Sequence record: LC788708.1 | From: Escherichia coli phage AZ21 | Length of the DNA: 64,000 bases | Reading direction: 5' to 3' (one strand) | Shown: positions 9,141 through 42,226 of the stretch, one piece after another | Layout of the letters: every line of letters begins with the position of its first letter | Position numbering within the stretch: position 1 is the stretch's first letter | Notes under the pieces: generated by a model | Databases searched by the model: none | Seen by the model: the letters and a program-made list of their open reading frames with translations, nothing else | Told to the model about the DNA's origin: nothing | Position numbers and translations under genes: made by a program

Positions 9141-9148
9141 GAGACTAT

Positions 9149-9674: not shown

Positions 9675-9682
9675 GATTACAT

Positions 9683-9759: not shown

Positions 9760-9774
9760 AATTAAGGAAATAAA

Positions 9775-9897: not shown

Positions 9898-9910
9898 CTG
9901 GAGAAAACAA

Positions 9911-10117
9911 ATGGCTAATCCTGAAATTACGGCACAACGCTTTATGCTGAAAGGAATTATTGCTGAAGCAGGCATGACAGAAGAAGTTGCAGATTTTCAA
10001 AAGCAATTCCTCAATATTCTCACTCAAGCCAAAGAGCTAGGAGAGAAAGAACATGGCGCGGCTATTATGGCAATCACATTGGTTGGGCTTGATCTGGCTG
10101 AAGAATCAGGAGTTTAA
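9911..10117 (+). CDS. hypothetical protein
   Basis: 68 aa from ATG with RBS GGAGAAAACAAATG; in-frame upstream extension lacks RBS. Confidence 0.4.
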   Translation: MANPEITAQRFMLKGIIAEAGMTEEVADFQKQFLNILTQAKELGEKEHGAAIMAITLVGLDLAEESGV

Positions 10118-10206
10118 CTCCTCCAAGCAGAAATTTTAAAAATGTACTTGCTTTTTGCTTAAGATTTCTGCTATAATAGTTATATAAGTTGATGAGAGGA
10201 ATCAGA

Positions 10207-16170: not shown

Positions 16171-16922
16171 TGTCAGTATTAGTCGGTTTACATGGTGAAG
16201 CTGGTTCGGGAAAAGATACCGTTGCAAAATTAATTATCGATTGGTGTAATGACACGTATCCAACGTGTTTATCCCGTCGTTATAGTTTTGCTAAGCCCGT
16301 TTATGAACTTGCATCCGTAATCCTCGGTGTAACTCCGGAGTTTCTAGGAGAGCGCAGGGGAAAAGAGATTGACCAATGGTTTACTGTCACACAATCTCAA
16401 TTGGAGCGAGCCAGAGATGTGTGGTTTAAGTACGGTATCGATAAGTTTGAAGACTTCTCGTACATTTGGCCTATTTTTGAGGAAAAGTATCTTAATCCTC
16501 AACAACTTATCTCAGAGAATAAAGAAGACGGATTTTATAGTTTATTTATTTCTCCGAGAAAAATGTTACAGCTCGTAGGGACAGAGCTAGGAAGGCAGCT
16601 GGTGCATGAACGCATTTGGCTCATAATTCTGGAGCAATCCATCGCTAAAGACGACCCAGATGTCGCCGTAATAACAGATGTTAGATTCCCCAATGAAGGA
16701 GAGTTACTCAGAGAAACAAACCATTTAGATATGGATTCTTTGATAGTAAATGTAGTACCCGCTGAGCAGAAGTTCACTATTAAATCAGATCATCCATCTG
16801 AAAGTGGTATTCCTGCAAAATATATTACTCACGAATTAGTTAATAAATTCGATGGTATCAATAACCTTAAACTAGAAGTTTATAACTTCTGTGACTTAGA
16901 GCTAGAACCACTAGTTGGATAA
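16170..16922 (+). CDS. dnk: deoxynucleoside monophosphate kinase
   Basis: 250 aa; P-loop GLHGEAGSGKDT and VITDVRFPNEGE motif typical of phage dNMP kinases. Confidence 0.7.
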   Translation: MSVLVGLHGEAGSGKDTVAKLIIDWCNDTYPTCLSRRYSFAKPVYELASVILGVTPEFLGERRGKEIDQWFTVTQSQLERARDVWFKYGIDKFEDFSYIWPIFEEKYLNPQQLISENKEDGFYSLFISPRKMLQLVGTELGRQLVHERIWLIILEQSIAKDDPDVAVITDVRFPNEGELLRETNHLDMDSLIVNVVPAEQKFTIKSDHPSESGIPAKYITHELVNKFDGINNLKLEVYNFCDLELEPLVG

Positions 16923-26044: not shown

Positions 26045-26649
26045 TGACTTTTAATACACAACAATCTATTCAAGTAGTGCCAGATCATGAACTGAACACA
26101 TGGGATTATAGCTTTAAAGATTTAACTGCTACTATACAATTTAAATCTATGAAGCTAACATTTGCACACACTGATCTTAGAGCCTGTAAAGATCTTGAGG
26201 ATAAGCTCGAAGATGCTCGTAAGATTTTTGGCAAGGCTCGCATCCCGGCTGATAATCTAATTAACGCATTAATCGATGTAGGATACAAACTCGTGAAGAC
26301 TGAGGTGAACCGCCCTAGTACTCCAGTGACTGTTAGAGATCCGTGGCAGCCAGGGACAATCTCAATGCTAAATAAATCATCGGATATACACAATGTTCCA
26401 TGCGGTGGTGTGGTAAGTAGTACGCAGTCATACAAGTTTGGTGAAGATTACGGCCCTTCTGTGCAGTTGAAACATACTCAAGAAGCTTTTGAATCTGATA
26501 TGCGAAGCGTAGCACCTGTGGATGCTGGAGTTTCTAGGAGTTCTGTTTGTACTATTCATTTTAATAATCCTAGTAAACATGGAAGTTTAGAGGATGCTAT
26601 CCTTGAAGCGTTGGGAGCTGCTATTAATGAAGATAAAAGAGGTAGTTAA
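26044..26649 (+). CDS. hypothetical protein
   Basis: 201 aa ORF in overlapping array. Confidence 0.5.
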   Translation: MTFNTQQSIQVVPDHELNTWDYSFKDLTATIQFKSMKLTFAHTDLRACKDLEDKLEDARKIFGKARIPADNLINALIDVGYKLVKTEVNRPSTPVTVRDPWQPGTISMLNKSSDIHNVPCGGVVSSTQSYKFGEDYGPSVQLKHTQEAFESDMRSVAPVDAGVSRSSVCTIHFNNPSKHGSLEDAILEALGAAINEDKRGS

Positions 26650-27539
26650 TGGGATTTTATAGTAATAGAAAACCAAAAGGTGTAACTGGTAAATTCGCAG
26701 TTGAAGAAAGACCTTTTCCACCGGTCGATGTAGAGAAACTACGTGAACTTCTAGAAATGCTAGAAGGTTGCCATGAACGTTGTTATTCTGAACTCTCTTT
26801 AAATGAGAAACGTGTTGTTGAGATGTTCTGTATTCGTTCAGCTAGAACAGCTAAAGGTACTTCTCCAAAAGATGAAGTAAAAGAGTACAGAGTTCTAGTG
26901 ATGCATGCTTGGGCACAACGTTTTGCAGTTCATTCGCTTCAGGAATGGTTTAATCTTCCAGCCTATAAAGATTTTCATGTTTACGAAGATGAGGTTATGA
27001 ATTATAATGAGTTGTATGGTTTGTCCTTCAAAAAGACAGGCTCACCGATGCATGATGCACTCAATTCATTCCCTGATCATTACCTTCCAGTTCGTGAATA
27101 TAGAGATCGTGAAGGAAATAAACCCTGCTTCACTATTTGGAATAAGTCTAAGACGATATCTGATCTAGATAATTATTGGTTTCGCACAAAAGAAGGATTC
27201 CTAGGAACAGAACCTTTACCTAAGGATCTCAAACCTATCCTTCCGCCTGCGAAACCTAAACATGAAGTAACGATTGCTATTAATAGAATAATTCTAGGAG
27301 CAGATGATCTTACTAAACAAATCGCCGCAGTTATCGCAGTTCTGTTTGACGGTACAAATTCTTCTGCACGTTATGAGAAGCTAACGGATAACAAATTGCA
27401 GATACCTAACGAGTTGTATGAGAGTTCGTGCAAGATCTATGATAACTTTAGTAAAGTAGATTACCCCGTGAGATCCATTAAAGAACTCATGGAGTATGCG
27501 GAGATGGGGATGAAAGGAAATCTCATGTTCGATGAATAA
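26649..27539 (+). CDS. hypothetical protein
   Basis: 296 aa ORF, last gene before the repeat-rich gap. Confidence 0.5.
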   Translation: MGFYSNRKPKGVTGKFAVEERPFPPVDVEKLRELLEMLEGCHERCYSELSLNEKRVVEMFCIRSARTAKGTSPKDEVKEYRVLVMHAWAQRFAVHSLQEWFNLPAYKDFHVYEDEVMNYNELYGLSFKKTGSPMHDALNSFPDHYLPVREYRDREGNKPCFTIWNKSKTISDLDNYWFRTKEGFLGTEPLPKDLKPILPPAKPKHEVTIAINRIILGADDLTKQIAAVIAVLFDGTNSSARYEKLTDNKLQIPNELYESSCKIYDNFSKVDYPVRSIKELMEYAEMGMKGNLMFDE

Positions 27540-27546
27540 ACTCTAC

Positions 27547-27575
27547 TTGACGTTATGATTTCTGCATGTTATAAT
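27547..27575 (+). promoter_or_regulatory. sigma70 promoter firing into the non-coding repeat region
   Basis: TTGACG-17-TATAAT with no ORF downstream for about 1.8 kb. Confidence 0.55.
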
Positions 27576-27903
27576 AACTCTATGAAATAACATAGAATAA
27601 AGAGATCCACCCGGATACGGATGGTGGATGGGAAACTTCTATTTCCCCCGTAGCTTGTCGGAGGGCTAGGGAAATCTTAAGAAGTTTTGTACCATCTCAC
27701 GCAATTCGTATCCCAGGGGTGGAGCATCTCTTCCAATCTTTGGGGATCTTATACTTAAATTAAAGGTAAAACTTTTGGTCACATAATTTACATTCAAGAT
27801 GATACACTGGTTGCCGCCATTCTTCCTAGGATGGCACAACACTTTCTTCTAGACTCCTAAGTTTCTAGGAATACTAACTCTAGAGTTTACACTAAACTTT
27901 GAA

Positions 27904-28641
27904 TCGGATTCGCACATGCTCTAGGGCAGTTTTTCATCTACTATAAATATCCTAGGCCGGTTTTCCTATACAGGGCGGTTATGGGGAGGGCGGTTATTTC
28001 TAGACAATAAAATTTACTCTTGTCAGTCCAGAAATTACTGTCGGATTTGCACATTGTGTTTCTAGAAATTTATGGTCGGATTTGCACAATTGCCTAAGTT
28101 TTTAGGAACATATAATCTCCTGAAAATGGCAGCATTATTTCGGGCCGAAGGCCCATGATTGCCTGAGTTTTTTTAGAGACACAGAAATTTTCACTTGTCA
28201 AGCTATTTTGCCCCATTTTGCTAATAAAATTTTACTTTATCTCCCCTAATCTCAAATTAACCCAAATCTTCTCAACTCTTCTCCAAAATCCCCGCAAATC
28301 AGGTGCTCCGCACCAAACATGCGCCCCTCCCGTAGTTCCCCCAAGTTTCTCTCGATCTCTCAACTTCTCCCCAAACTCATACAATCACACACCCTCCAAT
28401 CGAAGTCACAAAAATCTTGTCGGATTCGCACAAATAAACCCATGTCGGATTTGCACATATTCTAGTTAATTCCACAGGATTGATGCGCAGCATCGGATTG
28501 CTGGAGTTTTTGGGAGAATTCATTGTCGGATTCGCACACTATAAAAATTTTTCGGGTCGGATTTGCACACTACCAAAAATTGTCGGATTCGCACATACAC
28601 GCCCACGCGTAATCCATGGGGGCAAATGTCGGATTTGCACA
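27904..28641 (+). repeat. array of 9 direct copies of GTCGGAT(T/C)(T/C)GCACA
   Basis: Copies at about 27904, 28040, 28075, 28419, 28444, 28525, 28557, 28582, 28628, same orientation, irregular spacing, non-coding. Confidence 0.8.
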
Positions 28642-28647
28642 AAAGCG

Positions 28648-28663
28648 CAGGGCAATTGCCCTG
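28648..28663. repeat. perfect 16-bp palindrome CAGGGCAATTGCCCTG
   Basis: Exact reverse-complement symmetry. Confidence 0.8.
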
Positions 28664-28705
28664 CTTGCCTGAATGCGAATGATAATGAGAATCATTTGCA
28701 TTTAA

Positions 28706-28858
28706 AAAGCGGAATGAGAATGATAATAATTCGCATTTAAGAATGGAAGTGAGAATTATTCAGGAAGTGAAACGATTCTCATTTAAAAAGTGAAACGATT
28801 CTCATTTAGAAAGTGAAACGCGAATGATAATGATTCGTATTTAAGAATGGAAGTGAGA
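28706..28858 (+). repeat. two about 42-bp direct repeats flanking a 23-bp tandem repeat
   Basis: ATGATAAT.ATTCG.ATTTAAGAATGGAAGTGAGAA at about 28706 and 28817; GTGAAACGATTCTCATTTA(A/G)AAA x2.5 at 28767-28822. Confidence 0.75.
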
Positions 28859-28874
28859 AACACTATTATTTAAG

Positions 28875-28964
28875 TTATCCACAGACTTATCAACAGCACG
28901 ATTTGACTTGACAGAATCCTAGCCATTTTGAGGCGTTATCAACAGACTTATCAACAGCTTATCC
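28875..28964. promoter_or_regulatory. DnaA-box cluster
   Basis: TTATCCACA at 28875-28883 plus three TTATCAACA variants within 90 bp. Confidence 0.55.
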
Positions 28965-28984
28965 TACTGTATAAATATACAGTA
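28965..28984. promoter_or_regulatory. LexA (SOS) box, near-consensus
   Basis: TACTGTATAAATATACAGTA, i.e. CTGT-N8(AT-rich)-ACAG, one spacer difference from the E. coli consensus. Confidence 0.6.
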
Positions 28985-29177
28985 TTCCTATGCAGTGAAT
29001 AATTCTAATATACAGCTAAAACGCTCTCAAACGCATTCTAACGCGTTTAATTTTGGTGGGGATACTAAAACAAGGGCAAAATTGGAGGAGGCTTGAAAAT
29101 TAGTTAGCTCGCTAATGATCACACACGGCGACACGTAACACCCTAACCATTAGCAGGCTAACCATCGCGGGCGTGGT

Positions 29178-29200
29178 CAAATGAGAATGATTCTCATTTG
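29178..29200. repeat. perfect inverted repeat CAAATGAGAAT-G-ATTCTCATTTG
   Basis: 11-bp arms around a single central base. Confidence 0.8.
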
Positions 29201-29350
29201 TGGATTGGGGGCGCTTCCTGATAGTTGCGCCCCGTGATTATTATAGTAGGGGGCAACCGTTACGCTTTGCCCACTCCCGCCACTCATCTTGGTGCCTAGA
29301 CTTGCGACGGCGTACTAAAAACCGCTTGTACCAGTGATTAAACCATCGTT

Positions 29351-29554
29351 TCATAAATCCTCCTCCGGTAGTCGATGCGTGATCTTTTCCTCCTCCCCAT
29401 AGGAATCCACCAAATACTGATAATAACCATCGTGATCATAAATCACTTTATCATATTCCCCACGCTCGACCGCTTGCCGATTTTCCAACGTATCAGGCAC
29501 AAAGAAAGTATCAACGGTAACAGTAGTTTTAGTTACAACAATTTTATCACTCAT
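29351..29554 (-). CDS. hypothetical small acidic protein
   Basis: 67 aa; last gene of tightly packed minus-strand operon; start overlaps upstream tiny ORF. Confidence 0.45.
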   Translation of the reverse strand: MSDKIVVTKTTVTVDTFFVPDTLENRQAVERGEYDKVIYDHDGYYQYLVDSYGEEEKITHRLPEEDL

Positions 29555-29680
29555 AATGCCATCGCCCCTAGAATGAGAATGATTATCAATATCATTGTGA
29601 AGCCATTACCAAATCGTAAACGCTGGGAATGTTTCCCAGCGGTATTATTAGACTTATGGCTTTGTGTTTTTCGCCACCAG

Positions 29681-29881
29681 CTATTCACGGTAGACGCTCC
29701 ATCCGTCTAGCTTCCATTCTTCCCCCTTGCGAATATTGAAAAACCAATCATTAAAATTGTAACCATCTTCTGACATGATCACGCCGTTTTCTTTCATGTA
29801 CAAAAATTCATCACTAGTAAAATATTGATTACTAACTTTAAAACCTTGTTTCATTTTTTCTAGTGCTTCATCTTTAGTCAT
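29681..29881 (-). CDS. hypothetical small acidic protein
   Basis: 66 aa; ATGA-type overlap with upstream gene. Confidence 0.45.
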   Translation of the reverse strand: MTKDEALEKMKQGFKVSNQYFTSDEFLYMKENGVIMSEDGYNFNDWFFNIRKGEEWKLDGWSVYRE

Positions 29882-30222
29882 TGCGCCACCTTTCGAAACG
29901 CTGTTTCAATACTATCCGCAGTGGATTGAATATATGCGCCTTTGAGTATCAGCCGCTCGGTGCATATCTTGCGAAAAATATTAATAAAATCGTCCTCATT
30001 TTCTGCGATTAATGCCTCACCCATAACCTGAACGTCGCAAGATGCAAAGGTCAAAAATTGAAACGCTAGTTCACGGGCAACGACCGCATTGATTTTATAA
30101 TGCGCCTTGCCTTCATAGATATTAATAACGCCCTTATAAGCTGGCGAAAGCTGATTTAAGTAGTTTGCTAATAATGCCGGACGGCAATTAGCAACAAAAC
30201 GATTGCCCTCATAAATAACCAT
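29878..30222 (-). CDS. hypothetical protein
   Basis: 114 aa, minus-strand operon member. Confidence 0.5.
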   Translation of the reverse strand: MVIYEGNRFVANCRPALLANYLNQLSPAYKGVINIYEGKAHYKINAVVARELAFQFLTFASCDVQVMGEALIAENEDDFINIFRKICTERLILKGAYIQSTADSIETAFRKVAQ

Positions 30223-30349
30223 TTGATAGTCTCCCGATTAGATAGCCAGATAATAACATAAAGATCCCCAATAAAAGAGGATCATTCTTAAATAAGGTGG
30301 CGGTAAAACCGCCAACCATTGCAAGGAGAATAACAATAATGCTTTTCAT
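30209..30349 (-). CDS. small membrane protein (46 aa)
   Basis: MKSIIVILLAMVGGFTATLF hydrophobic ORF; ATG overlaps stop of upstream gene (ATGA) and its stop overlaps next start. Confidence 0.3.
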   Translation of the reverse strand: MKSIIVILLAMVGGFTATLFKNDPLLLGIFMLLSGYLIGRLSNGYL

Positions 30350-30558
30350 AGTACCCCACGAAACGCAGCGTAAAAGGTGGCAAAGTGTTTAACTGTTTCA
30401 GCAATCACGTTGCCGCGCTTATCAAATTTCTTTTCTGTAACACGAAAGGCATTTTTATTACGTGCTACATATTCGATTTTACAATCTTCCCGCTCGAACG
30501 TGTTAACATCCACCAGCTTAAAGCCTTTCGAACGTGCAAGAGAAACGTTGCGGATCAT
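30346..30558 (-). CDS. hypothetical basic protein
   Basis: 70 aa ORF in minus operon. Confidence 0.45.
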   Translation of the reverse strand: MIRNVSLARSKGFKLVDVNTFEREDCKIEYVARNKNAFRVTEKKFDKRGNVIAETVKHFATFYAAFRGVL

Positions 30559-30560
30559 TT

Positions 30561-30743
30561 TTATTCCCCTTTACTAGTCATGCAGCCCAGCAGATAAGAA
30601 AATACAGCGATGCCAGCACCAATAGTAACCATTGGTTTTATATTTACTAAACCGCAATAGGAATCCTGAATACCATAAGCGGTGGCGAAAAGAGTCAAAA
30701 TAGCGCCCAAGATACCCGCTAAAATAGCTCGAAAAATAACCAT
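30561..30743 (-). CDS. small membrane protein
   Basis: 60 aa with two hydrophobic helices; preceded by GGGGCG-loop-CGCCCC hairpin. Confidence 0.45.
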   Translation of the reverse strand: MVIFRAILAGILGAILTLFATAYGIQDSYCGLVNIKPMVTIGAGIAVFSYLLGCMTSKGE

Positions 30744-30792
30744 TTGTAATACTCCTCTAGTTAGTGGGGCGAAAGTAACGCCCCGTTATTAA

Positions 30793-31023
30793 TTACATTA
30801 AAATAATTTTTGCCGCTTGTTTTTTGGTACAGTGTTCCGCTTTCAGGGTGTCCAGCAAAAAGCCCGCCGTTTGCTGATCGATTTTATCGGCATTATATAG
30901 TTCTTGGATGGTGTTATAAGTTTTAGCAATGCCGTATTCTTGTACCATTTCTTGAATAATCCAGCGATTTGATACCCAGCCTTTACCAGTGAAAAGAGCG
31001 TCAGAAGAAGAGTAAGCAACCAT
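30793..31023 (-). CDS. hypothetical protein
   Basis: 76 aa from ATG with RBS GGAGGCTTAAAATG (minus strand); longer track ORF lacks RBS. Confidence 0.45.
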   Translation of the reverse strand: MVAYSSSDALFTGKGWVSNRWIIQEMVQEYGIAKTYNTIQELYNADKIDQQTAGFLLDTLKAEHCTKKQAAKIILM

Positions 31024-31086
31024 TTTAAGCCTCCAAATTTTTGGGAAAATTTTCAACCGTCCTCAAACGGTGTAAAGGCATTATAA

Positions 31087-31115
31087 CAAAAAAGGCCGCC
31101 ATAAAAGGCGACCTT
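31087..31115 (-). terminator. rho-independent terminator (minus strand)
   Basis: AGGTCGCC-loop-GGCGGCCT hairpin followed by TTTTTT on minus strand, right after the stop of 31130-31624. Confidence 0.5.
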
Positions 31116-31129
31116 TACAAAACTTTACA

Positions 31130-31624
31130 TTAAACTACTTGTAAGGATTCAATATTGAAACATCGTTTCAGTTCGTCATGCAAAACGGCATATTCATCCC
31201 ATCGGGTACTATCAGGAATATAAACAAGCTGTTTTAATCGGTTTGCATATATTACCGCTTTGTTATCAATTATCTCGACGCCACCATATTTAATAATTAA
31301 TTTCATGACGGAATTAATAGGATCGCCGCCGTTTACATATGCGCCGGATTTACTTAATTGATAATGATAAAGGCTTGCATATACGTTTTCATTTTCATAC
31401 CATTCGCCAGTCTCTTCGTCTTCATAGCCATCGCTACCAAAACGAGAAGCATTATCAACAGCCATTTCATGAGCAAAAGCGTCCAGATCCGTACCAGCAG
31501 GAACAAAATATTCCTCGGTATTCCCTTCCCCGCAATAGCCAGTATGACAATCGACTAAAATGATCATATCATGTTTAGCCTTGCTCACTTCCCCTAGCGA
31601 GAAGCCGTATTTTTCTTCTAACAT
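31130..31624 (-). CDS. hypothetical acidic protein
   Basis: 164 aa from ATG with RBS GGAGAC; acidic run DGYEDEETGEWYENENVY. Confidence 0.5.
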   Translation of the reverse strand: MLEEKYGFSLGEVSKAKHDMIILVDCHTGYCGEGNTEEYFVPAGTDLDAFAHEMAVDNASRFGSDGYEDEETGEWYENENVYASLYHYQLSKSGAYVNGGDPINSVMKLIIKYGGVEIIDNKAVIYANRLKQLVYIPDSTRWDEYAVLHDELKRCFNIESLQVV

Positions 31625-31688
31625 AATTAGTCTCCTATTAATTAACAAGGAAATAGTAAAGCGGGGAAATAATCCCCGCTAGATATTA

Positions 31689-31922
31689 TTACTCGTTTTC
31701 GGTGTTAGTGGTAAAAGTAGAGATATCGATACCTTTTACCATTTCATCGATCATCTCAGCGATGTTAAAACTTTGCACCATTTCTAACATTGCCGCTTCC
31801 ATAGCCGCCCCTGCTACCGCTTTCGCTTTCTGATTAGTCGGGGCGTACTGGTCAACCGCTACACTCAGCAGGTTAGCGATCACTACACGACCAATCGGCG
31901 TATCAATATAGCCTTTGATCAT
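31689..31922 (-). CDS. hypothetical protein, possibly C-terminal part of a frameshifted gene
   Basis: 77 aa ORF overlapping end of 31903-32694 by 20 nt; reachable by +1 shift at an A7 run. Confidence 0.4.
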   Translation of the reverse strand: MIKGYIDTPIGRVVIANLLSVAVDQYAPTNQKAKAVAGAAMEAAMLEMVQSFNIAEMIDEMVKGIDISTFTTNTENE

Positions 31923-32694
31923 AAACGGTGCTTTTTTTAGCCGCTACTTTCGTGATTTGAGTTAGTGCAATTTTACCAGCTTCCAGTTTTGCAGCGTTTA
32001 CAACAGCGGATTTATTAGCGGCAACGATATTAGCGATCTTGGTCATGGTATTTTTTCCTTTGTTTTCAGTAGTTTGAGTATTAACGCTTTGAGTGTTAGA
32101 GCTTACAACCTGTTTTTCAATATTGTCAACTGGTTTTAGTGTAAATCCAGCATTTGCAACGTTTGATTCATTCCCATACTCTAAATAATCACTAGGGATC
32201 AACATGTTGCCACTAGCGCGTTCAAAACATAACACGCCAGTTGTAGAAATTACATTACTATCAGCACTTTTGTAATTAGCTGATAGTTCACGCCAAATGC
32301 TAGTTAATAACGATCCGACACTATCAGTCCTGATATTACTTACTTTTGTTGCTGTTACTTGCTCTTTTTCTTGCACGTTATATAATCGCGCAATGTAACC
32401 ACTATTAGATTCACTATAACCAACAATGATAAAATCAATATCTCTTCCACGTTGATTGCGGAAAATGTGATAATCACGGTTGAAAATTACTAGCGCCCTT
32501 TTCTGGTCTAGTAATTGTGTGAAATCTTCAACTGAATAATGAGTACCCTCATCGTCTAAAATTCTATCATGAATCTTTTCGATAATAGTAGCGGTATGCT
32601 GTACGCTTGCCGCGCTACTACCCTCTAACAGATTGCGCAAACTGCCTTTAATAATAGTGGCGTTTGCTGGTACTGCAATTCTTACAGTAGACAT
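31903..32694 (-). CDS. hypothetical protein (first gene of minus-strand operon)
   Basis: 263 aa ORF, Ser/Thr/Asn-rich middle, Ala/Lys-rich C-terminus; ends just after A7 homopolymer. Confidence 0.5.
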   Translation of the reverse strand: MSTVRIAVPANATIIKGSLRNLLEGSSAASVQHTATIIEKIHDRILDDEGTHYSVEDFTQLLDQKRALVIFNRDYHIFRNQRGRDIDFIIVGYSESNSGYIARLYNVQEKEQVTATKVSNIRTDSVGSLLTSIWRELSANYKSADSNVISTTGVLCFERASGNMLIPSDYLEYGNESNVANAGFTLKPVDNIEKQVVSSNTQSVNTQTTENKGKNTMTKIANIVAANKSAVVNAAKLEAGKIALTQITKVAAKKSTVYDQRLY

Positions 32695-32960
32695 TTTATT
32701 TTGTCTCCCTCGTTAATCGGTGAGTGAATGATAAGGGTAATTTTCTAGCATAGGCAAATATTATTTTACTTTTTTATTTTCCTTGCCTAGCGTCTAATTT
32801 TATGCTAACCGCGCAGCGGTGCAATAAAGAGCAAACCACGGCGAAGCCACCAGCCCGACGCATTGAGGCTTTACTTTAATATTACCTTACAGCGTTTAGC
32901 TCGTTAGAATGCGTTTTGGGCCACTTAAAATTGATTGCAGTTGTTAACACTACCTTTCTA

Positions 32961-32980
32961 CCCTGTATATTTATACAGTG
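32961..32980. promoter_or_regulatory. LexA (SOS) box
   Basis: CCCTGTATATTTATACAGTG with perfect CTGT-N8-ACAG core, about 270 bp upstream of the first minus-strand gene. Confidence 0.55.
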
Positions 32981-32988
32981 GAATAACC

Positions 32989-33397
32989 TGTGGATAAGTC
33001 TGTGCAAAAGTCCTTATATCACCGCCTATCGTGTCAAGTTATTTTGTGCTGTGGAAAACATTGTGGATAACTTAAATGATAGTGCTTCTCACTTAGGCTA
33101 ATGATTTCTTATAGTTATTATTTCTCATTAATTTATAAGTATATTATATATTATCAAATAGTTAGTTGGCTAATGAGATTTTCCGTGATTAATAGTCTGC
33201 TAATAATTCAGGTCGTTACAATCCACCAGCATGATTATCATTCTAGCAATTATTAGTCTGCTATCTTTCCGATACATACTAACAAATAAAAGTCAATTAA
33301 TTTATTTCATAAAATAAGTAGTTATCCACTGGAAAATAAAAGTCAAGTGGATAACTAGGAAAATTTCATTTTTGCTTTTGGGGATAAGTTATCAACA
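32989..33397. promoter_or_regulatory. DnaA-box cluster
   Basis: TGTGGATAA at 32989 and 33062, TTATCCAC at 33322, GTGGATAA at 33347, TTATCAACA at 33389. Confidence 0.55.
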
Positions 33398-33799
33398 AGG
33401 CTAGAATGCGCCTAAAACGCTCCAGAACGCGATGAAGTTTTTAGCCACCCCATCATAAGGGGATAGGCCGTTTATCGCTGCCACGAGCTTTTTAGATTTT
33501 GTCAAGTAGGGGAAAGCAAATATAAATGAAAAAATTACTTGCCTATTTGCTTTATTTTGTGGTATTCGCGCCCGTTTCTTTTAATTTTAGGCCGTCGCCG
33601 GACGTGGTGCGGTGAATTTTGTCTTTACGTTTCTTTACAAAAATAAGGTTGCGCCATTTTCGGGAATCCCCTATTATTTATCACGTAGGGCGGCAATGAC
33701 GAACTACACGGCGGGAAGTTTACCGCCACGCTCTTTAAAAATTGGGTACATCTTAAAGCCTATCGGCGGTAAACTTATTTATTATAAGGAATCGACGAT

Positions 33800-34012
33800 A
33801 TGAAACAAACTTTATTGATCACTGGCAAGCCTATTAAGGCACTAGATAGCAAAACAAAAAATTTGTTGACAGTAGCGCAAAGATCGGTAAAATACCGATT
33901 CACGCAGTACAAGAAAGACCGCCAGCAAGGTTTAGAAATGATCTGGCGAAACATTATGATTGACTTGAAAGAAAATCATAAAAAACTGCAAAAAAATTAT
34001 TTGACAACCTAG
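33800..34012 (+). CDS. hypothetical ORF (doubtful)
   Basis: 70 aa ORF but contains internal TTGACA-17-TAAAAT promoter-like sites; may be non-coding. Confidence 0.2.
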   Translation: MKQTLLITGKPIKALDSKTKNLLTVAQRSVKYRFTQYKKDRQQGLEMIWRNIMIDLKENHKKLQKNYLTT

Positions 34013-34233
34013 CCGATAGGTTTTAAGATGTACCCAGTTCGATAAGAGCGATAACTTGATAAAATTTGACGGTCGGTGCTTACCATAATGCGCCCCGCCC
34101 CCTAACGGGATATAGCGGCCTACGTGGAGTTCTTTAAATTGATTATAGCGGCGAGAGGATTGTTACTTATTACCTGCTAGTATTTTCTAGTAGGTAATAA
34201 GTAACAATCCATCAAATAACTGGAGTTTATATT

Positions 34234-34485
34234 ATGCAAAACGTTATTACCGCGCCTAAAATTGGTCAATCCGTCTTTATTCCTTTCGTTACTAAAACGG
34301 ATGAATTAACCGGAAAGGCCGAACGTATTAAAGGTGCGGCGCTTATGCCGTTCGATACAATCGACGCGGTATATGCTGAAAATGAACGCAGTAACAACGG
34401 CAAGCCCGTTTTTAGCGTTCGCGTTAAATCCGGCGATGTTGTAAAGGTTGTTCAACGCAACGAAAAATGGGAAGCTGTGTTGTAA
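34234..34485 (+). CDS. pre-early hypothetical protein
   Basis: 83 aa, RBS AACTGGAGTTTATATTATG; followed by perfect 9-bp hairpin. Confidence 0.5.
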   Translation: MQNVITAPKIGQSVFIPFVTKTDELTGKAERIKGAALMPFDTIDAVYAENERSNNGKPVFSVRVKSGDVVKVVQRNEKWEAVL

Positions 34486-34583
34486 TTTAGTGTTAACTTT
34501 ATATCCCCCTTATTTCAGGGGGATATAACGATTAACATTAAGTTAATCTAATCCCTTAAATTAAACTAATAGGAGTTTTTACC

Positions 34584-34991
34584 ATGACTAACGCAAAAAC
34601 CGCAAAATTCGCATGGAATGAAGAAAACACTCAGAAAGCTGTTACCATGTACCAGCAGTTAATCAACGAAAACGGTTTAGATTTTGCAAATAGCGACGGC
34701 CTGAAAGAGATTGCAAAAGCAGTAGGCGCGGCCTCCCCCGTATCCGTTCGGTCAAAATTGACCAGTGCAAAAGCCTATCAAAAAAGCGATAAGCCGCGTA
34801 AAGTTGGCGGCGGTAGCTCTGTGCGTAAAGCTCACTATGTGCGAGTAATTGCAAAACACGCTATCGATTCCGGTATTATCAAAGACGCCGATGATCTGGC
34901 AAGCCTTGAAAGTGCTAAACTGGAAACGCTGGACGCGGTGGCGCAACTGTTAGGCGTTGCCGATGAAGTAAAACAAGCCGTAGGTGAATAA
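34584..34991 (+). CDS. pre-early hypothetical protein
   Basis: 135 aa, RBS AGGAG; followed by GCCCCCT-loop-AGGGGGC hairpin. Confidence 0.5.
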   Translation: MTNAKTAKFAWNEENTQKAVTMYQQLINENGLDFANSDGLKEIAKAVGAASPVSVRSKLTSAKAYQKSDKPRKVGGGSSVRKAHYVRVIAKHAIDSGIIKDADDLASLESAKLETLDAVAQLLGVADEVKQAVGE

Positions 34992-35081
34992 TAGTTATAC
35001 CTTGCCCCCTTCTAGTGAGGGGGCACTAATATAACTGTTTAGCGATAGTTATTTTCTTCCCTTAAATCAGGAGTTTTAAAA

Positions 35082-35279
35082 ATGGTTTTCTTCCCTACTG
35101 AATCTTTGATTCTAGGCTTGTTTATTATGGCGGCCTCATTATTGTTCGCTTATTTTCAGAATGATTTAGATTCGTATTATTTTAAACGTAAATCTAAATT
35201 AGCAAAACGTTTGGGCTTGCTTTGTTTTATCGCTGCCGTTGCCTGTGGTGTTAGTTCGAGTCTAGTACCATTAAATTAA
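35082..35279 (+). CDS. small membrane protein
   Basis: 65 aa with two hydrophobic helices; RBS AGGAG. Confidence 0.4.
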   Translation: MVFFPTESLILGLFIMAASLLFAYFQNDLDSYYFKRKSKLAKRLGLLCFIAAVACGVSSSLVPLN

Positions 35280-35366
35280 TGTTGCAAATTATAACGCCTA
35301 TTATTCGAGGCGTTATATTTGGCAATATTGCCATTATTAACCTAATCCCTTTAATGGAGTTTTATT

Positions 35367-37037
35367 ATGATTATTTCCGCAGAAAAACAAACCGTTATCC
35401 TGAAAATGGCCGCTGATTTCAATTTCTACGGTAAACGCCTGCGCGCCACTAAACTGGAGGTCTGCGACGATATTTCAAAAGCGGTCTACGATACAACGAA
35501 ACACTCCACCGCTATCTGCGACTGGCTGGAAGCAAATAAACCAGCGAAACCAAAAGCGGCAAAAGTAGCAAAAGCCATTAAAAACGGTGAGCGCCCCGAA
35601 GCGGCTGGGATTGTTTCTAGTACCGTGGAGCAGTGGGAAGTAAAACAAGGTAAACGCTTTATTATTACATCGATTCAGAATAATACTTTCCCGCATAAAA
35701 ACTTTTTAGCCTCACTGGAGCAATTTGCTAAATATATCGGGGCTGATTTGCTCGTTTCTAAGTATATTTATAATAAAAACGGTTTTCAAAATGGGGAAGG
35801 TGCTGACGGAATCAAATATGATTCCGCGTTTGATAAATATATTTGCAGCAAAAACGTGTTTTTGAATAACCGCCGCTTTGCTTTCATGGCTGAAATTAAT
35901 GTTTTGCCTACCGCAGATTATCCGCTTTCTGGATTCGCAGAAACTGCAACGGCTTTAAATATTGAAGGTCTGGCAATTGGTCACGCTAAAATTACCGCTG
36001 AAAGCGTACCAGCTTTAAAAGGTGAAGTAGTGCGCCGTATGTACTCAACCGGAACGGCAACGCTCAAAAACTACATTCAGCAGAAAGCAGGACAAAAGGC
36101 CGAGGCGCTGCATAACTTCGGTGCGCTTATTGTTGAGTTCGACGAGGACGGGGAATTTTTTGTACGCCAGCTTGAAACGATGGACGAAAGCGGGGTATTT
36201 TATGATCTGAATGTGTGTGCTACTCCTGCCGGATGCTATGAAACATCGGGGCATGTTTTAGGCTTGCAGTATGGCGATATTCACGCCGAAAAATTAGATG
36301 AGGAGTGCGCCGCCGCGTCATGGGGGCATGGTGATACTTATGGGCTAGTAGATATTCTTAAACCAAAATATCAGTTTGTGCATGACGTGCATGATTTTAC
36401 ATCGCGCAATCATCATAACCGCGCATCGGGTGTATTCCTAGCAAAACAGTACGCCGCCGGACGTGATAAGGTTATTGATGATCTTATCGATACGGGGCGC
36501 GTGCTGGAATCAATGGAGCGTGATTTTTCTCAAACAATCATTGTTGAATCGAATCACGATTTGGCGTTATCCCGTTGGCTTGATGATCGTAATGCTAACA
36601 TCAAAGACGATCCAGCAAACGCAGAACTGTATCACCGCCTGAATGCTGCAATTTACGAGGCAATCGGTGAACATGACGAAACGTTCAACGTGCTAGATTA
36701 TGCGCTGCGCAAGGTTGCAGGTTGTGAGTTTAACGCCATTTTCCTGACCACTGACCAATCTTTCAAGATTGCAGGCATTGAATGCGGCGTACACGGTCAC
36801 AACGGCATTAATGGCAGTCGTGGCAATCCCAAACAATTTAAGAAATTGGGCAAGTTAAACACTGGTCATACTCATACGGCAAGCATTTACGGCGGGGTAT
36901 ATACCGCTGGCGTAGCTGGTAGTCTGGATATGGGTTACAACGTTGGCGCGTCAAGCTGGACGCAAACTCATTTAATTACCTATGCAAACGGTCAGCGCAC
37001 TTTGATTGACTTTAAGAACGGTAAATTTTTTGCGTAA
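35367..37037 (+). CDS. A1: A1-like pre-early protein, calcineurin-like metallophosphatase (Mre11/SbcD-type nuclease fold)
   Basis: 556 aa (size of the T5 A1 product as I recall it); GDIH, ESNHD, HGHNG, GHTHT metallophosphatase motifs in order; sits with dmp-like gene. Confidence 0.7.
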   Translation: MIISAEKQTVILKMAADFNFYGKRLRATKLEVCDDISKAVYDTTKHSTAICDWLEANKPAKPKAAKVAKAIKNGERPEAAGIVSSTVEQWEVKQGKRFIITSIQNNTFPHKNFLASLEQFAKYIGADLLVSKYIYNKNGFQNGEGADGIKYDSAFDKYICSKNVFLNNRRFAFMAEINVLPTADYPLSGFAETATALNIEGLAIGHAKITAESVPALKGEVVRRMYSTGTATLKNYIQQKAGQKAEALHNFGALIVEFDEDGEFFVRQLETMDESGVFYDLNVCATPAGCYETSGHVLGLQYGDIHAEKLDEECAAASWGHGDTYGLVDILKPKYQFVHDVHDFTSRNHHNRASGVFLAKQYAAGRDKVIDDLIDTGRVLESMERDFSQTIIVESNHDLALSRWLDDRNANIKDDPANAELYHRLNAAIYEAIGEHDETFNVLDYALRKVAGCEFNAIFLTTDQSFKIAGIECGVHGHNGINGSRGNPKQFKKLGKLNTGHTHTASIYGGVYTAGVAGSLDMGYNVGASSWTQTHLITYANGQRTLIDFKNGKFFA

Positions 37038-37093
37038 TTAAATTATTTCCCTAGCGGCTTGAAATACAGCCGCTATTACAGGAGCTAAATTAA

Positions 37094-37372
37094 ATGGCTA
37101 TTAAAATTAATCTTCCCAATATTAAAAACACCGCTGATATATGGTCGATTGATACTATATTGCGTGGCACTGTATACCGTAATTTAAAAGATAATAATTG
37201 TTATATTTATCAAAATGAATTAAACGGCCATATTTACATAATCGAGTCCGATGGTTTTTGTTCTTTTGAGACTGATTATGAAGCGCAAGATCATATACAG
37301 GCAAATGATATTCCTGACGTATGGAAAGAAACAAACCTTGCTTTTGTTGTAAGTCTTGAAGCTAACAAATAA
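37094..37372 (+). CDS. pre-early hypothetical protein
   Basis: 92 aa ORF downstream of A1-like gene, RBS AGGAGCTAAATTAAATG. Confidence 0.45.
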   Translation: MAIKINLPNIKNTADIWSIDTILRGTVYRNLKDNNCYIYQNELNGHIYIIESDGFCSFETDYEAQDHIQANDIPDVWKETNLAFVVSLEANK

Positions 37373-37410
37373 ATTAAATATCTTATTAAATTAATTGGAG
37401 TTTTACAAAT

Positions 37411-37803
37411 ATGAAAAAGCAAAATATTCCATTCGATCGCGCTCAGTCTTCTATTGTTCTGGTTTATTCTAATGGTGAGCGTTACCACGTCGAGGCGGGG
37501 CACGTTATTGATGAATTATTAGATTTCAATGACGCTTTACAGGTTACTACCTTTGCCTACACGCAAGGCCGCGCAAGTAGTTACATTAAGGCCGCAGGCG
37601 TTTATGTTGACACGGTGAAACAAGAAACGATTATCATCGACGCAGTAAAATCCGGTCTAGCCTTTGCAGTTGTCGCGCCTTGCCCCTCTTGTCTTGATGA
37701 TCAGCTAACGAGTGCGAAAGTATACACCTGCGCGGGCATTCGTTCCCATGTATCAGGAGAGGATATTAGTTTTATCGCTGATGCGTTGGCTTATGGTCTT
37801 TAA
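37411..37803 (+). CDS. pre-early hypothetical protein (possible A2 equivalent)
   Basis: 130 aa ORF downstream of A1-like gene; assignment by position only. Confidence 0.4.
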   Translation: MKKQNIPFDRAQSSIVLVYSNGERYHVEAGHVIDELLDFNDALQVTTFAYTQGRASSYIKAAGVYVDTVKQETIIIDAVKSGLAFAVVAPCPSCLDDQLTSAKVYTCAGIRSHVSGEDISFIADALAYGL

Positions 37804-37883
37804 TAGTTGATTTATTATTGCCCGCTGATAGATAGCGGGCAATGCTGGATAAACTACATCCCTTTAATGGAGAACGTAACAAA

Positions 37884-38618
37884 ATGAATCAAGTTAAAAC
37901 GAATATTTCCCGTAACTTCCCGCATATTTCCCGCGTCATGATCTGGGATCTTGATGGCACTATCGTTAATTCATTCCATCGTGTAGCGCCTTGCTTTGAT
38001 AGTGAGGGTAATCTAGATTTAAATAAGTATAAGAATGAGGCTTGCAAACATGATTTAATAATGCAGGATACTTTATTGCCTTTGGTGGAATATATGCGCC
38101 AATGCATGAATGACGCAAATACTTTAAACATTATTTGTACCGCTCGATTAATGAGCAAATCGGATTATTATTATTTGCGCAAACAAGGCTTGCGAGGGCG
38201 TGGGGATAGCAATATCCGCGTGTTTTCCCGCGACACGCTGCATAAATATTTTGAAGCTGATAAGGTTAGCGAGATATACCACAGTAAAGACGCAGTTTAT
38301 AAATCGTATTACTTTGAATTATTTAAACAGCTATATCCGAACGCTGATTTCACAATGATTGATGATCATAAAGGTGTATTATCAGCGGCGGCGTCATACG
38401 GATTTAAAACGCTAGACGCGCAAGCCGTTAACGATATTCTATCAATCGGCGTGGCATTGATAGGCGGAACCTTTATTGATGAATCTCTCGATGATGATAA
38501 TGATTATCAGTTCCTAGCCGATCGATTGAAATTATGTTGGGAAAGTATGACCGAAGAAGAACGCGCAGAATATAGTTGCAGCCCGCAACAATATATTGAG
38601 AAATTAAAAGTTGCGTAA
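37884..38618 (+). CDS. dmp: HAD-family 5'-deoxyribonucleotidase (dmp-like)
   Basis: VMIWDLDGTIVNS (HAD motif I DxDGT); RBS GGAGAACGTAACAAAATG; pre-early context. Confidence 0.65.
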   Translation: MNQVKTNISRNFPHISRVMIWDLDGTIVNSFHRVAPCFDSEGNLDLNKYKNEACKHDLIMQDTLLPLVEYMRQCMNDANTLNIICTARLMSKSDYYYLRKQGLRGRGDSNIRVFSRDTLHKYFEADKVSEIYHSKDAVYKSYYFELFKQLYPNADFTMIDDHKGVLSAAASYGFKTLDAQAVNDILSIGVALIGGTFIDESLDDDNDYQFLADRLKLCWESMTEEERAEYSCSPQQYIEKLKVA

Positions 38619-38782
38619 TAATTAAAGTTGAAATAGTTTCATCCTGCAATTAAAATGGTTGCGGGATGAAACAATTACCCTGCTAATAGTAACGGGGGTG
38701 GCGGTTAGCAGACTAAGTATTCTCCCCCAACCCACTGGACACACCTCCATGTGTAATCCTATGAAATTTGGCAAAAGTCAAA

Positions 38783-41743: not shown

Positions 41744-42226
41744 ATGGCAAATGATGTATTAGTTCCCGATCTCATGTCTCCCGAAGGCATGGATGTTATT
41801 GAAGCCTATTTACAGTGCGGTAGTGATGTTCCTGCCGCCGCTCGTAGTCTTGGAATGTCCGAGATTGCATTTCGTGATATAATGAATCGTGGGGAAGTTA
41901 AAAACTATCTCAACGATATCTTTATGGAAAGCGGCTTCCGTAATCGTGACCGCTTATTCGGAGTTCTTGATGAAGTTATCAAACGCAAGTTGGAAGAACT
42001 CGAAGAAACTGGCATGGGTTCTGACCAGGATATCATGGATATTCTCTGGAAGGCGCACAAGATGAAGATGGAAGAAATGAAAATGATGGTAGAACTGGAG
42101 AAAGTGAAGGCAGCAGCCCGTACTCCGGCTAACCAGACTAATATTCAGAATAATATTATTGCTGGAAGTGGTGACGAAAACTATATGAATCTTATTACCG
42201 CTCTAGCAGGAGGAGGTAAGAGATAA
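41744..42226 (+). CDS. terminase small subunit (putative)
   Basis: 160 aa, HTH-like [15 protein letters not shown], immediately upstream of and overlapping terminase large subunit. Confidence 0.5.

What the first reader, a model, noticed from the sequence alone, without database searches (positions are those of the whole stretch)
27581..29350. 1.8-kb non-coding region with an iterated GTCGGAT(T/C)(T/C)GCACA array (injection-stop-signal-like)
Nine same-orientation copies of a 14-16-bp motif occur at irregular spacing in a region with no credible ORF. A consensus sigma70 promoter (27547-27575) fires directly into it. The region lies at the boundary between early genes and pre-early genes, which is where T5-type phages pause DNA injection. 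The array looks like a multi-site protein-binding platform or the template of a non-coding RNA.
Basis: partly seen in the sequence, partly recalled or inferred. Interest (0 to 1): 0.75.

Follow-up and report, generated by a model that had tools for sequence, protein, structure and literature searches.

The report
Known phage T5 "DRD" repeat array
The nine repeats are real, but they are the already catalogued "direct repeat D" array beside the injection-stop region of T5-type phages; nobody knows its function, and it most likely works as a row of protein-binding sites on DNA at the edge of the phage's long terminal repeat.

Summary
There are nine same-strand copies of GTCGGATYYGCACA at 27903-28641, where chance predicts 0.68 in the whole window. 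No conserved ORF lies in the region. A near-consensus promoter sits at 27547-27575.

The window is coliphage AZ23, a Tequintavirus, read in reverse orientation relative to T5. The array is the orthologue of T5 "direct repeat D" copies 1-9, annotated in GenBank AY587007 and described by Davison (2020). So it is already known, though no function has been assigned to it.

New points from comparison:
- The array always forms two clusters that bracket the right end of the ~10-kb terminal repeat (window 28175|28176).
- The innermost copy abuts the 7.9 % nick site.
- All copies share one orientation in about 60 loci.
- The motif drifts between phage subfamilies, while neighbouring DnaA-type and LexA-type boxes do not. 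This points to a phage-encoded binding protein.
- The promoter is followed everywhere by a long hairpin, probably a separate small RNA.

Best guess (0.35): DNA-level iterons that mark the genome's right end for packaging. Main rival (0.25): a handle for the injection pause or restart.

Interest is low to moderate.

The parts
27903..27916 (+). DRD copy (T5 DRD9 orthologue), ATCGGATTCGCACA; outer cluster, outside the terminal repeat
28040..28053 (+). DRD copy (T5 DRD8 orthologue); outer cluster
   Evidence: 99% column conservation
28075..28088 (+). DRD copy (T5 DRD7 orthologue); outer cluster, 87 bp from the predicted terminal-repeat edge
28133..28232 (.). Nearly invariant block containing the predicted right edge of the terminal repeat (between 28175 and 28176: ...GAGTTTTTTTA|GAGACACAGAAATTTTCACTTGTCAAGC). 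The repeat then runs from 28176 to 38741.
   Evidence: Terminal-repeat ends annotated in T5, BF23 (PhageTerm), MM-1 and My1 fall at the homologous point. The block is 88-100% conserved per 20-nt window (97-100% over 28193-28232), above most of the DRDs. The left end was matched to T5 position 1.
28419..28432 (+). DRD copy (T5 DRD6 orthologue); first copy of the inner cluster, 243 bp inside the terminal repeat
28444..28457 (+). DRD copy (T5 DRD5 orthologue); sits 25 or 35 bp from the previous copy in different relatives
28525..28538 (+). DRD copy (T5 DRD4 orthologue)
28556..28569 (+). DRD copy (T5 DRD3 orthologue)
28582..28595 (+). DRD copy (T5 DRD2 orthologue)
28628..28641 (+). DRD copy (T5 DRD1 orthologue); innermost copy, 3 nt from the nick site
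28645..28652 (+). GCGCAGGG, orthologue of the T5 'major single-stranded nick 1, 7.9%' (nick predicted between 28644 and 28645, on this strand)
   Evidence: Annotation mapped through the DRD1 register. The same consensus occurs at T5 nick 2 and window 16352 with no DRD beside it.
28647..28664 (-). Terminator-like hairpin (T5 palindrome J) that closes pre-early transcription. Its T-run overlaps the innermost DRD.
27547..27575 (+). Near-consensus sigma-70 promoter with extended -10, conserved across the family
27600..27732 (+). Long imperfect hairpin directly downstream of the promoter; candidate small RNA, separate from the repeat array
26379..26392 (+). Decayed orthologue of T5 DRD10 (ATCGGATATACACA, 3 mismatches) inside the T5.019-like CDS

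Best explanation
**Identity.** The nine repeats are AZ23's copy of T5 'direct repeat D' (DRD1-9) in the non-coding 'Repeat Region 3' that holds the annotated injection stop signal.

**How I think they work.** They act as double-stranded DNA, not RNA.
- Each unit is an asymmetric 14-bp core, (T)GTCGGATTYGCACA, preceded by a short A-tract.
- All units point the same way.
- The units load several copies of one sequence-specific protein, most likely phage-encoded.
- They form two clusters on either side of the right edge of the 10.6-kb terminal repeat: three copies outside it and six inside.

**Specific role I commit to.** The bound array marks the genome's right end for the packaging machinery. 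It would be a terminase recognition and initiation platform flanking the cut site. The right end should be packaged first, because the left end is injected first.

**What is shown and what is inferred.**
- Shown: identity with T5 DRD, the conservation, the orientation, the bracketing of the repeat edge, and the motif drift.
- Inferred: protein binding, which protein it is, and the packaging role.

**Confidence breakdown.**

| Claim | Confidence |
|---|---|
| Identity with T5 DRD | about 0.98 |
| DNA-level protein-binding array | about 0.8 |
| Packaging / end-definition role | about 0.35 |
For: **Identity**
- 100% match to AZ23.
- Same nine copies with identical spacings in T5.
- Annotated as direct repeat D copies 1-10 in AY587007.
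- Described by Davison.

**Constraint on the motif**
- In about 60 T5-like loci there are 457 instances and none on the opposite strand.
- The motif has sharp edges and an A-tract at -8 to -6.
- The exact core persists in Sugarlandvirus and in Pectobacterium phage My1, where the flanks are no longer alignable.

**Bracketing of the repeat edge**
- Terminal-repeat ends determined independently in T5, BF23 (by PhageTerm), MM-1 and My1 all fall in the large gap between the two clusters.
- That gap holds the best-conserved block of the region.

**Binder is phage-lineage specific**
- The motif changes to RTCGAAWWWSTACTT in Aeromonas phage AhSzq-1.
- It changes to TCRGWTTYGCAC / ATCGAATTAGCAC in Vibrio phage JSF10.
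- It changes to TWGRWTTYGCACAT in Vibrio phage 234P1.
- In the same regions the DnaA boxes (GTTATCCACA) and the CTGTAT-N4-ATACAG boxes stay unchanged.

**DNA rather than RNA**
- The array is closed on the pre-early side by a terminator-like hairpin.
- On the early side the only promoter is followed by a hairpin, and in BF23 by a terminator.

**Candidate protein**
- A small terminase subunit gene is present at 41744-42226.

**Precedents (from my own knowledge, not tested here)**
- The P1 pac site has hexamer clusters on both sides of its cut.
- Lambda cosB has R sites.
- T7 has pacB and short repeat arrays next to its terminal repeat.
Against: - No binding, cleavage or packaging data exist for these repeats. 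None of the T5 papers held in the searchable library assigns them a function.
- The distances to the predicted cut (87 and 243 bp) are larger than in the classical pac and cos sites.
- There is no helical phasing. Spacings are 25-137 bp.
- No DRD lies near the left end of the repeat, where the second cut must occur.
- The bracketing could be incidental, because the whole non-coding region simply lies between pre-early and early genes.
- The best-conserved block at the cut site contains no DRD, so recognition might reside there alone.
- The packaging direction is inferred from the 'last in, first out' rule, not shown for T5.
Confidence: 0.35

Rival explanations
1. The array is an injection pause or restart element. 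It is the first DNA beyond the ~8% stop point. Its same-orientation sites would be bound as they emerge by the pre-early DNA-binding protein A2 (with A1), which ratchets or pulls the rest of the genome in. Alternatively, a virion or host protein bound to the sites holds the DNA at the pause.
For: - DRD1-6 lie inside the segment annotated iss in T5.
- The array starts ~54 bp beyond the estimated 9618-bp shear point and 3 nt from the 7.9% nick.
- A2 is annotated as a DNA-binding protein, is encoded on the first-step DNA (34584-34991), and is required for second-step transfer.
- A uniform orientation suits a directional process.
Against: [quoted passage not shown]
- Three copies lie outside the terminal repeat, and the clusters bracket its edge in four lineages. 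An injection role does not explain this.
- The stop itself needs no new protein synthesis, so A2 cannot cause it.
- A1 homologues in pf16 sit among replication genes with no such array nearby.
Confidence: 0.25
2. The repeats are low-affinity DnaA boxes. They would extend the cluster of strong DnaA boxes nearby, so that membrane-associated host DnaA oligomerises along the entering DNA. This extends Davison's DnaA model of the stop.
For: - The 3' half, ATTTGCACA, is one mismatch from TTWTNCACA.
- In Vibrio phages JSF10 and 234P1 some copies contain a perfect TTTTGCACA.
- Consensus DnaA boxes lie 230-330 bp away, at 28874-28958, and in Repeat Region 2.
Against: - All nine AZ23 copies miss the consensus. 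Five miss by one position. The four with C at motif position 9 (27903, 28419, 28525, 28582) miss by two.
- The invariant GTCGG half is not needed by DnaA.
- The AhSzq-1 version has no CACA at all.
- True DnaA boxes in the same regions stay TTATCCACA in every lineage while the DRDs drift.
- Spacing is far wider than in the oriC low-affinity arrays (own knowledge).
Confidence: 0.12
3. The array is a set of replication-origin iterons. With the DnaA boxes, the CT/AT-rich stretch and the promoter-driven structured transcript, it would form an origin bound by a phage initiator.
For: - Same-orientation repeats lie in clusters of 6, 2-3 and 1 distant copy next to DnaA boxes.
- This resembles plasmid oriV-type layouts (own knowledge).
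- A conserved promoter plus structured RNA lies next to the array.
Against: - Electron-microscopy mapping puts the T5 origins near the genome centre.
- Spacing is irregular and not the ~22-bp iteron rhythm.
- No initiator gene was found adjacent.
Confidence: 0.1
4. The repeats work at the RNA level. They would be transcribed from the 27547 promoter as a multi-site RNA, for example a protein sponge.
For: - A strong conserved promoter points at the array.
- Each unit contains a GGA and a weak TGT...ACA dyad.
- In AZ23 no canonical terminator was detected between the promoter and the first repeat.
Against: - The promoter is followed by its own long hairpin in every lineage, and by a canonical terminator in BF23-type phages.
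- Rfam finds nothing.
- A + strand terminator-like site lies inside the array at 28488-28503.
- The array spans the genome end, so in virion DNA the two clusters are not contiguous at the right end.
Confidence: 0.04
5. The repeats have no function of their own. They would be relics of local duplication that persist because the whole region is conserved.
For: - Within Tequintavirus and Epseptimavirus the spacers are almost as conserved as the motifs (80% against 89%).
- The tenth copy is decaying in AZ23.
Against: - The exact core is kept in genera whose flanks no longer align.
- Orientation is uniform in 457 instances.
- A recognisable, lineage-specific version exists in every subfamily examined.
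Confidence: 0.04

Closest known systems
T5 'direct repeat D' (DRD1-10) of Repeat Region 3, in the iss region (GenBank AY587007 annotation; Davison, bioRxiv 10.1101/866236)
   Same: Same motif, same nine copies and same spacings. Same flanking genes, nick site, palindromes and DnaA boxes.
   Different: Nothing essential differs. AZ23 carries C instead of T at the variable position in two copies, and its tenth copy has decayed.
Phage P1 pac site and lambda cosB (terminase recognition repeats flanking or adjoining the cut; own knowledge)
   Same: Short, repeated motifs are grouped beside the site where the genome end is made.
   Different: Distances here are larger (87 and 243 bp). There are 9 sites spread over 740 bp. 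Terminase binding is untested. T5-type ends carry a 10-kb direct repeat rather than cohesive or headful ends.
T7 concatemer-junction elements: pacB, the short repeat arrays beside the terminal repeat, and the rightward promoter reading into the junction (own knowledge)
   Same: A phage with direct terminal repeats. Repeat arrays lie next to the repeat edge. A conserved promoter is aimed at the junction.
   Different: No sequence relationship. T7 uses its own RNA polymerase. The roles of the T7 arrays are themselves unclear.
Plasmid and phage origin iterons, e.g. RK2 oriV and P1 oriR (own knowledge)
   Same: Direct, same-orientation repeats of 14-22 bp in clusters next to DnaA boxes.
   Different: Irregular spacing, no adjacent initiator gene, and T5 origins were mapped elsewhere.

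Membership tests
T5 direct repeat D (DRD) array | Core sequence GTCGGATT(T/C)GCACA in direct orientation | tested here: met
   8 exact copies plus 1 one-mismatch copy. Identical motif in T5, annotated as DRD.
T5 direct repeat D (DRD) array | Nine copies with the T5 order and spacing, between the T5.017 and T5.018 homologues | tested here: met
   Spacings 46, 26, 31, 81, 25, 344, 35 and 137 are identical in T5 and the window. Flanking genes.
T5 direct repeat D (DRD) array | Innermost copy next to the 7.9% nick and palindrome J | tested here: met
   CACAAAA|GCGCAGGGCAATTGCCCTGC at 28638-28664, against the annotations. The nick itself was not measured in AZ23.
Functional injection stop signal (iss) | Cis-acting site at which DNA transfer halts after ~8% of the genome | not testable with these tools
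   Only positional homology is available. Six copies fall inside the annotated iss (NC_005859 9140-10149) and three fall outside it. The literature favours neighbouring elements.
Terminase recognition site (pac/cosB type) | Repeated motifs adjoining the genome-end cleavage site | tested here: met
   The clusters bracket the annotated repeat ends in T5, BF23, MM-1 and My1. The AZ23 end is inferred by homology.
Terminase recognition site (pac/cosB type) | Specific binding by the small terminase subunit | not testable with these tools
   A TerS gene is present at 41744-42226. There are no binding data.
DnaA box cluster | Match to TT(A/T)TNCACA | tested here: not met
   No DRD is among the exact matches in the window. 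ATTTGCACA has 1 mismatch and ATTCGCACA has 2.
Origin iterons | Regular ~2-helical-turn spacing and an adjacent initiator gene | tested here: not met
   Spacings range from 25 to 344 bp. Neighbouring ORFs have no replication-initiator match.
Described RNA families (Rfam) | Covariance-model match at or near the gathering score | tested here: not met
   No hit in the region at the gathering threshold. With the E-value threshold there are only chance-level hits far below the gathering scores.

The most novel reading that the evidence does not exclude
One phage-protein-bound 'bookmark' is used twice in the life cycle. The DRD array, together with the invariant block at the repeat edge and the conserved promoter-hairpin unit aimed at it, would be the long-sought end-formation and packaging-start site of T5-type phages. 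The same nucleoprotein complex, carried in the virion or re-formed on entry, would be what halts DNA transfer at 8% and is then released by A1/A2.
Probability: 0.12. Interest if true: 0.7.

Novelty: already known. Interest (0 to 1): 0.3.

Why it matters
Why T5 DNA transfer stops at 8% and how it restarts has been open since the 1960s. A 2026 paper still calls second-step transfer poorly understood. How T5 makes its 10-kb terminal repeats is also unknown.

The repeat array is not a new object. The comparative picture assembled here does turn it into a concrete reagent:
- It has a sharply defined 14-bp site.
- It forms two clusters that bracket the repeat edge.
- Its motif drifts by lineage, which implies a phage-encoded binder.

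A pull-down or gel-shift assay with this 14-bp site would show whether it belongs to packaging, to injection or to both.

Tried and rejected
- **Rfam.** The whole window at gathering threshold, and the region at E up to 5, gave nothing relevant.
- **Related loci from the T5.018-like protein.** Only one locus was returned. I switched to a DNA-pattern scan and to annotated phage records.
- **Davison 2015 review.** It is not held in the library. The 2020 preprint has no supplement text held.
- **Nick determinant.** I tested whether the DRDs are needed for site-specific nicks. T5 nick 2 and its AZ23 orthologue have the GCGCAGGG consensus with no DRD beside it, so I rejected this.
- **Link to A1 outside the family.** In Pseudomonas phage pf16 the A1 homologue sits among replication genes with no repeat region nearby, so this was uninformative.
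- **Pfam on A2, A1, dmp and neighbours.** No domains were found except DUF7566.
- **Antisense targets of the hairpin RNA in the window.** Only chance 11-mers turned up.
- **Host-factor resemblances of the DRD considered from memory** (CRP, LexA spacing, mar box, CsrA GGA sites). None fits the invariant 14-bp core. They were not pursued.
- **Helical phasing of the copies.** None was found (spacings).
Full report

Yes. GTCGGATYYGCACA occurs nine times on the + strand between 27903 and 28641. Eight copies are exact and one has A for the first G. Apart from a 2-mismatch site at 292, nothing else in the 64-kb window matches at up to two mismatches. Shuffles predict 0.68 hits. The repeat finder returns the same nine copies and shows that several share extra upstream bases.

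The largest ORFs in 27581-29350 are 83-86 aa with TTG starts. Relatives differ by 1-2-bp indels across them (spacings). The T5 records (NC_005859, AY587007, AY692264) annotate no gene there.

The promoter at 27547-27575 is TTGACG-17-TATAAT with an upstream TG, 11 of 12 matches.

**2. What is it?**

The segment is 100% identical to Escherichia coli phage AZ23 (LC788707, Tequintavirus). About 450 T5-like records carry it at 75-93% identity. The window is in reverse orientation relative to T5.

T5 has the same nine copies with identical spacings (46, 26, 31, 81, 25, 344, 35, 137), plus a tenth copy inside ORF019. GenBank AY587007 annotates them as 'direct repeat D copy 1-10'.

[quoted passage not shown] That is the non-coding stretch thought to hold the injection stop signal, iss. 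NC_005859 annotates iss at 9140-10149, which covers DRD1-6 only. The array is therefore a rediscovery.

Neither the preprint nor later papers assign the DRDs a function. Davison favours the neighbouring IRD'-spacer-IRC' and DRE elements, which lie to the left of the ~9618-bp shear point. A 2026 PNAS paper still calls second-step transfer poorly understood.

**3. Map of the region in window coordinates**

| Coordinates | Feature |
|---|---|
| 26649-27539 (+) | T5.018 homologue |
| 27547-27575 | Promoter |
| 27600-27732 | Long hairpin |
| 27793-27872 | Strongly conserved block |
| 27903, 28040, 28075 | Outer DRD cluster |
| 28133-28232 | Nearly invariant block with the predicted terminal-repeat edge at 28175\|28176 |
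| about 28240-28400 | CT-rich stretch |
| 28419-28641 | Inner DRD cluster of six |
| 28645-28652 | Nick consensus GCGCAGGG |
| 28647-28664 (-) | Terminator-like hairpin |
| 28672-28860 | GAATGAGAATGAT-type palindromic repeats |
| 28874-28897, 28935-28958 | Two DnaA-box pairs |
| 28965-28984 | LexA-type palindrome |
| 29351-29554 (-) | T5.017 homologue |

The repeat's left end matches T5 position 1 at window 38741. The collapsed terminal repeat is therefore 28176-38741, or 10,566 bp.

Beyond it come the receptor-binding protein, then the small and large terminase, portal, protease and major head genes.

**4. Comparative evidence**

*Orientation and edges.* In about 60 loci with at least three copies there are 457 instances, all on one strand. 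The motif has sharp edges and an A-rich tract at -8 to -6. This profile is biased, because the scan itself required at most one mismatch.

*Conservation within close genera.* Within Tequintavirus and Epseptimavirus the whole region is conserved: 89% for motif columns against 80% for the rest. Close relatives therefore discriminate poorly between motif and spacer.

*Conservation in more distant genera.* The informative cases lie further away. Klebsiella Sugarlandvirus-type contigs and Pectobacterium phage My1 keep the exact or near-exact core. In vB_Kpn_3 only 81 bp of the query aligned. The copy numbers and spacings also differ there.

*Bracketing of the repeat edge.* Repeat ends annotated in T5, BF23 (by PhageTerm), MM-1 and My1 all lie in the large gap between the two clusters. 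They sit at the homologous sequence ...GAGTTTTTA|GAKCCACA...TTTTCACTTGTCAAGC. Two annotations differ:
- Stitch is 5 bp off, probably through imprecise annotation.
- poul149 is placed roughly 250 bp further in, inside the array (between a degenerate copy at 1930 and the first inner copy at 1997), rather than in the large gap.

Right-repeat loci necessarily carry only the inner cluster.

*Adjacency to the nick.* The innermost copy is followed after 3-4 nt by GCGCAGG in T5-types, in the Sugarlandvirus type and in Aeromonas phage AhSzq-1. T5 nick 2 has the same consensus with no DRD. The repeats are therefore not nick determinants.

*Motif drift in the most distant subfamilies.*

| Phage | Motif version |
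|---|---|
| AhSzq-1 (Aeromonas) | RTCGAAWWWSTACTT |
| JSF10 (Vibrio) | TCRGWTTYGCAC x7, plus ATCGAATTAGCAC x3 |
| 234P1 (Vibrio) | TWGRWTTYGCACAT x6 |

In those same regions GTTATCCACA (the DnaA box) and CTGTAT-N4-ATACAG are unchanged. Sites for conserved host proteins stay fixed while the DRDs move. That is the pattern expected if the DRD binder is encoded by the phage and co-evolves with its sites. This is an inference from six lineages, not a proof.

**5. DNA or RNA?**

The promoter is conserved from T5 to the Vibrio phages. In every lineage a 90-140-nt imperfect hairpin follows it directly.
- At least seven sequence classes occur in T5-like phages, and five more in distant genera.
- All fold well below shuffles: z of -4 to -6.5 in T5-like phages and -3.5 to -6.2 in distant genera.
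- In T5-like phages the transcribed strand is the more stable one in 8 of 8 classes. In distant genera it is more stable in 4 of 5, with My1 the exception.
- Within classes, paired positions vary several-fold less than unpaired ones, and there are four compensatory changes.
- BF23-type phages have a canonical terminator about 165 nt downstream, roughly 250 nt before the first DRD.
- In AZ23 and T5 the equivalent hairpin has only a weak T-run, so read-through cannot be excluded.

On the other side, pre-early transcription meets a terminator-like hairpin whose T-run overlaps the innermost DRD.

The array thus looks insulated from transcription. That suits a DNA-level protein platform and argues against the repeats being the body of an RNA.

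**6. Mechanism**

I hold with about 0.8 confidence that the repeats are iterated binding sites on duplex DNA for one sequence-specific protein, probably phage-encoded.

For the process served I commit, at 0.35, to definition of the genome's right end and packaging initiation.
- The two clusters bracket the cut in every lineage where the end is known.
- The right end should be packaged first, because the left end is injected first (a general rule, not shown for T5).
- Clustered repeats beside the cut are how P1 pac and lambda cosB are built (own knowledge).
- A small terminase gene is present.

Against this reading:
- The distances to the cut are long.
- There is no phasing.
- There is no DRD at the left end.
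- An even better conserved DRD-free block sits at the cut itself.

The main rival (0.25) is a role in the injection pause or restart. In that model the array is the first DNA beyond the stop point and could be gripped by A2/A1. A2 falls in a PHROG family annotated as DNA-binding protein and is required for second-step transfer.

Weak DnaA boxes (0.12), origin iterons (0.10), an RNA role (0.04) and no function (0.04) follow. The evidence for and against each is in the rivals section.

**7. Novelty and interest**

The element is already known and annotated, so novelty is 'already known'. A T5 specialist would not be surprised by it. Its function is open and bears on a sixty-year-old question, but the finding as written adds nothing to what the T5 literature records.

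The comparative points above do sharpen the experiments:
- bracketing of the repeat edge across subfamilies;
- motif drift against fixed host-type boxes;
- a promoter that serves a separate hairpin RNA.

Interest: 0.3.

**8. Dead ends**

- Rfam found nothing.
- Pfam was empty for A2, A1 and the neighbours.
- The pf16 context was uninformative.
- No antisense target was found for the hairpin.
- The 2015 review and the 2020 supplement are not held.

Noticed in passing
window 27547-27779; also L006 1130-1330, L140 3274-3450, L141 2782-2980, L137 1942-2080: A near-consensus promoter is followed at once by a 90-140-nt imperfect hairpin in every Demerecviridae lineage examined. The hairpin sequences are unrelated between lineages (12 or more classes), yet all fold far better than shuffles. 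The transcribed strand is the more stable one in 12 of 13 cases (My1 is the exception). BF23-type phages add a canonical terminator. This looks like a conserved ~150-200-nt structured RNA with no Rfam match. I found no mention of it in the T5 papers I could read.
   Followed up: partly
window 28965-28984 and 32961-32980: TACTGTATAAATATACAGTA matches the LexA SOS-box consensus (from my own knowledge) at 19 of 20 positions. A second copy lies in the other arm of the T5 inverted repeat D/D'. The CTGTAT-N4-ATACAG core is kept from T5 to Vibrio and Aeromonas phages, often abutting a DnaA box. Davison's preprint does not mention LexA or SOS, and a literature search for T5 with LexA and SOS box found nothing.
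   Followed up: partly
window 28675-28734, 29183-29201, 29569-29593, 38490-38514: Sequences matching the Fur-box consensus GATAATGATAATCATTATC (from my own knowledge) at 14-17 of 19 positions are enriched: about 20 sites against 4.5 in shuffles. They cluster in the first-step-transfer DNA. T5-type receptors (FhuA, BtuB) are TonB-dependent outer-membrane transporters, FhuA for ferrichrome, so a link to the host iron regulator is a lead worth a binding test.
   Followed up: partly
window 28133-28232: This is the best-conserved stretch of the whole non-coding region (88-100% per 20-nt window; 97-100% over 28193-28232). It contains the hairpin GGGCCGAAGGCCC, a T-run and TTTTCACTTGTCAAGCTATTTTGCCCC. 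The annotated terminal-repeat ends of T5, BF23 and MM-1 fall inside it. Recognisable versions exist in My1, Sugarlandvirus-type and Vibrio phages. It is a likely cut-site signal.
   Followed up: partly
L139 3507-3778; L140 4472-4640; L141 3817-4017: In Aeromonas and Vibrio relatives, the place occupied in T5-types by the GAATGAGAATGAT palindromes is taken by long arrays with an 8-bp period (CCGTCTAG/CCTTCTAT, or ATTATTGT).
   Followed up: no
window 27847-28110: Between the outer DRD copies lie several TTTCTAG(A/G)AA / CCTAAGTTTCTAGGAA palindromes (CTAG-rich) and a GGGCGGTTAT direct repeat. Both are conserved into My1 and DU_PP_V-type phages. Their function is unknown.
   Followed up: no
window 16350-16359 and 28643-28652: The T5 nick consensus (A/G)|GCGCAGGG is present at the orthologues of T5 major nicks 1 and 2. 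AZ23 probably carries the same site-specific single-strand interruptions.
   Followed up: partly
window 43714-44388: An HNH/homing-endonuclease-like ORF is inserted between the large terminase and portal genes.
   Followed up: no
window 1-64000 against LC788707: The coordinate offset to the AZ23 record (+40147) would put window position 64000 about 72 bp beyond the record's 104,075-bp end. The window therefore wraps the record, or comes from a differently permuted copy. The deposited genome has the terminal repeat collapsed to one copy.
   Followed up: no
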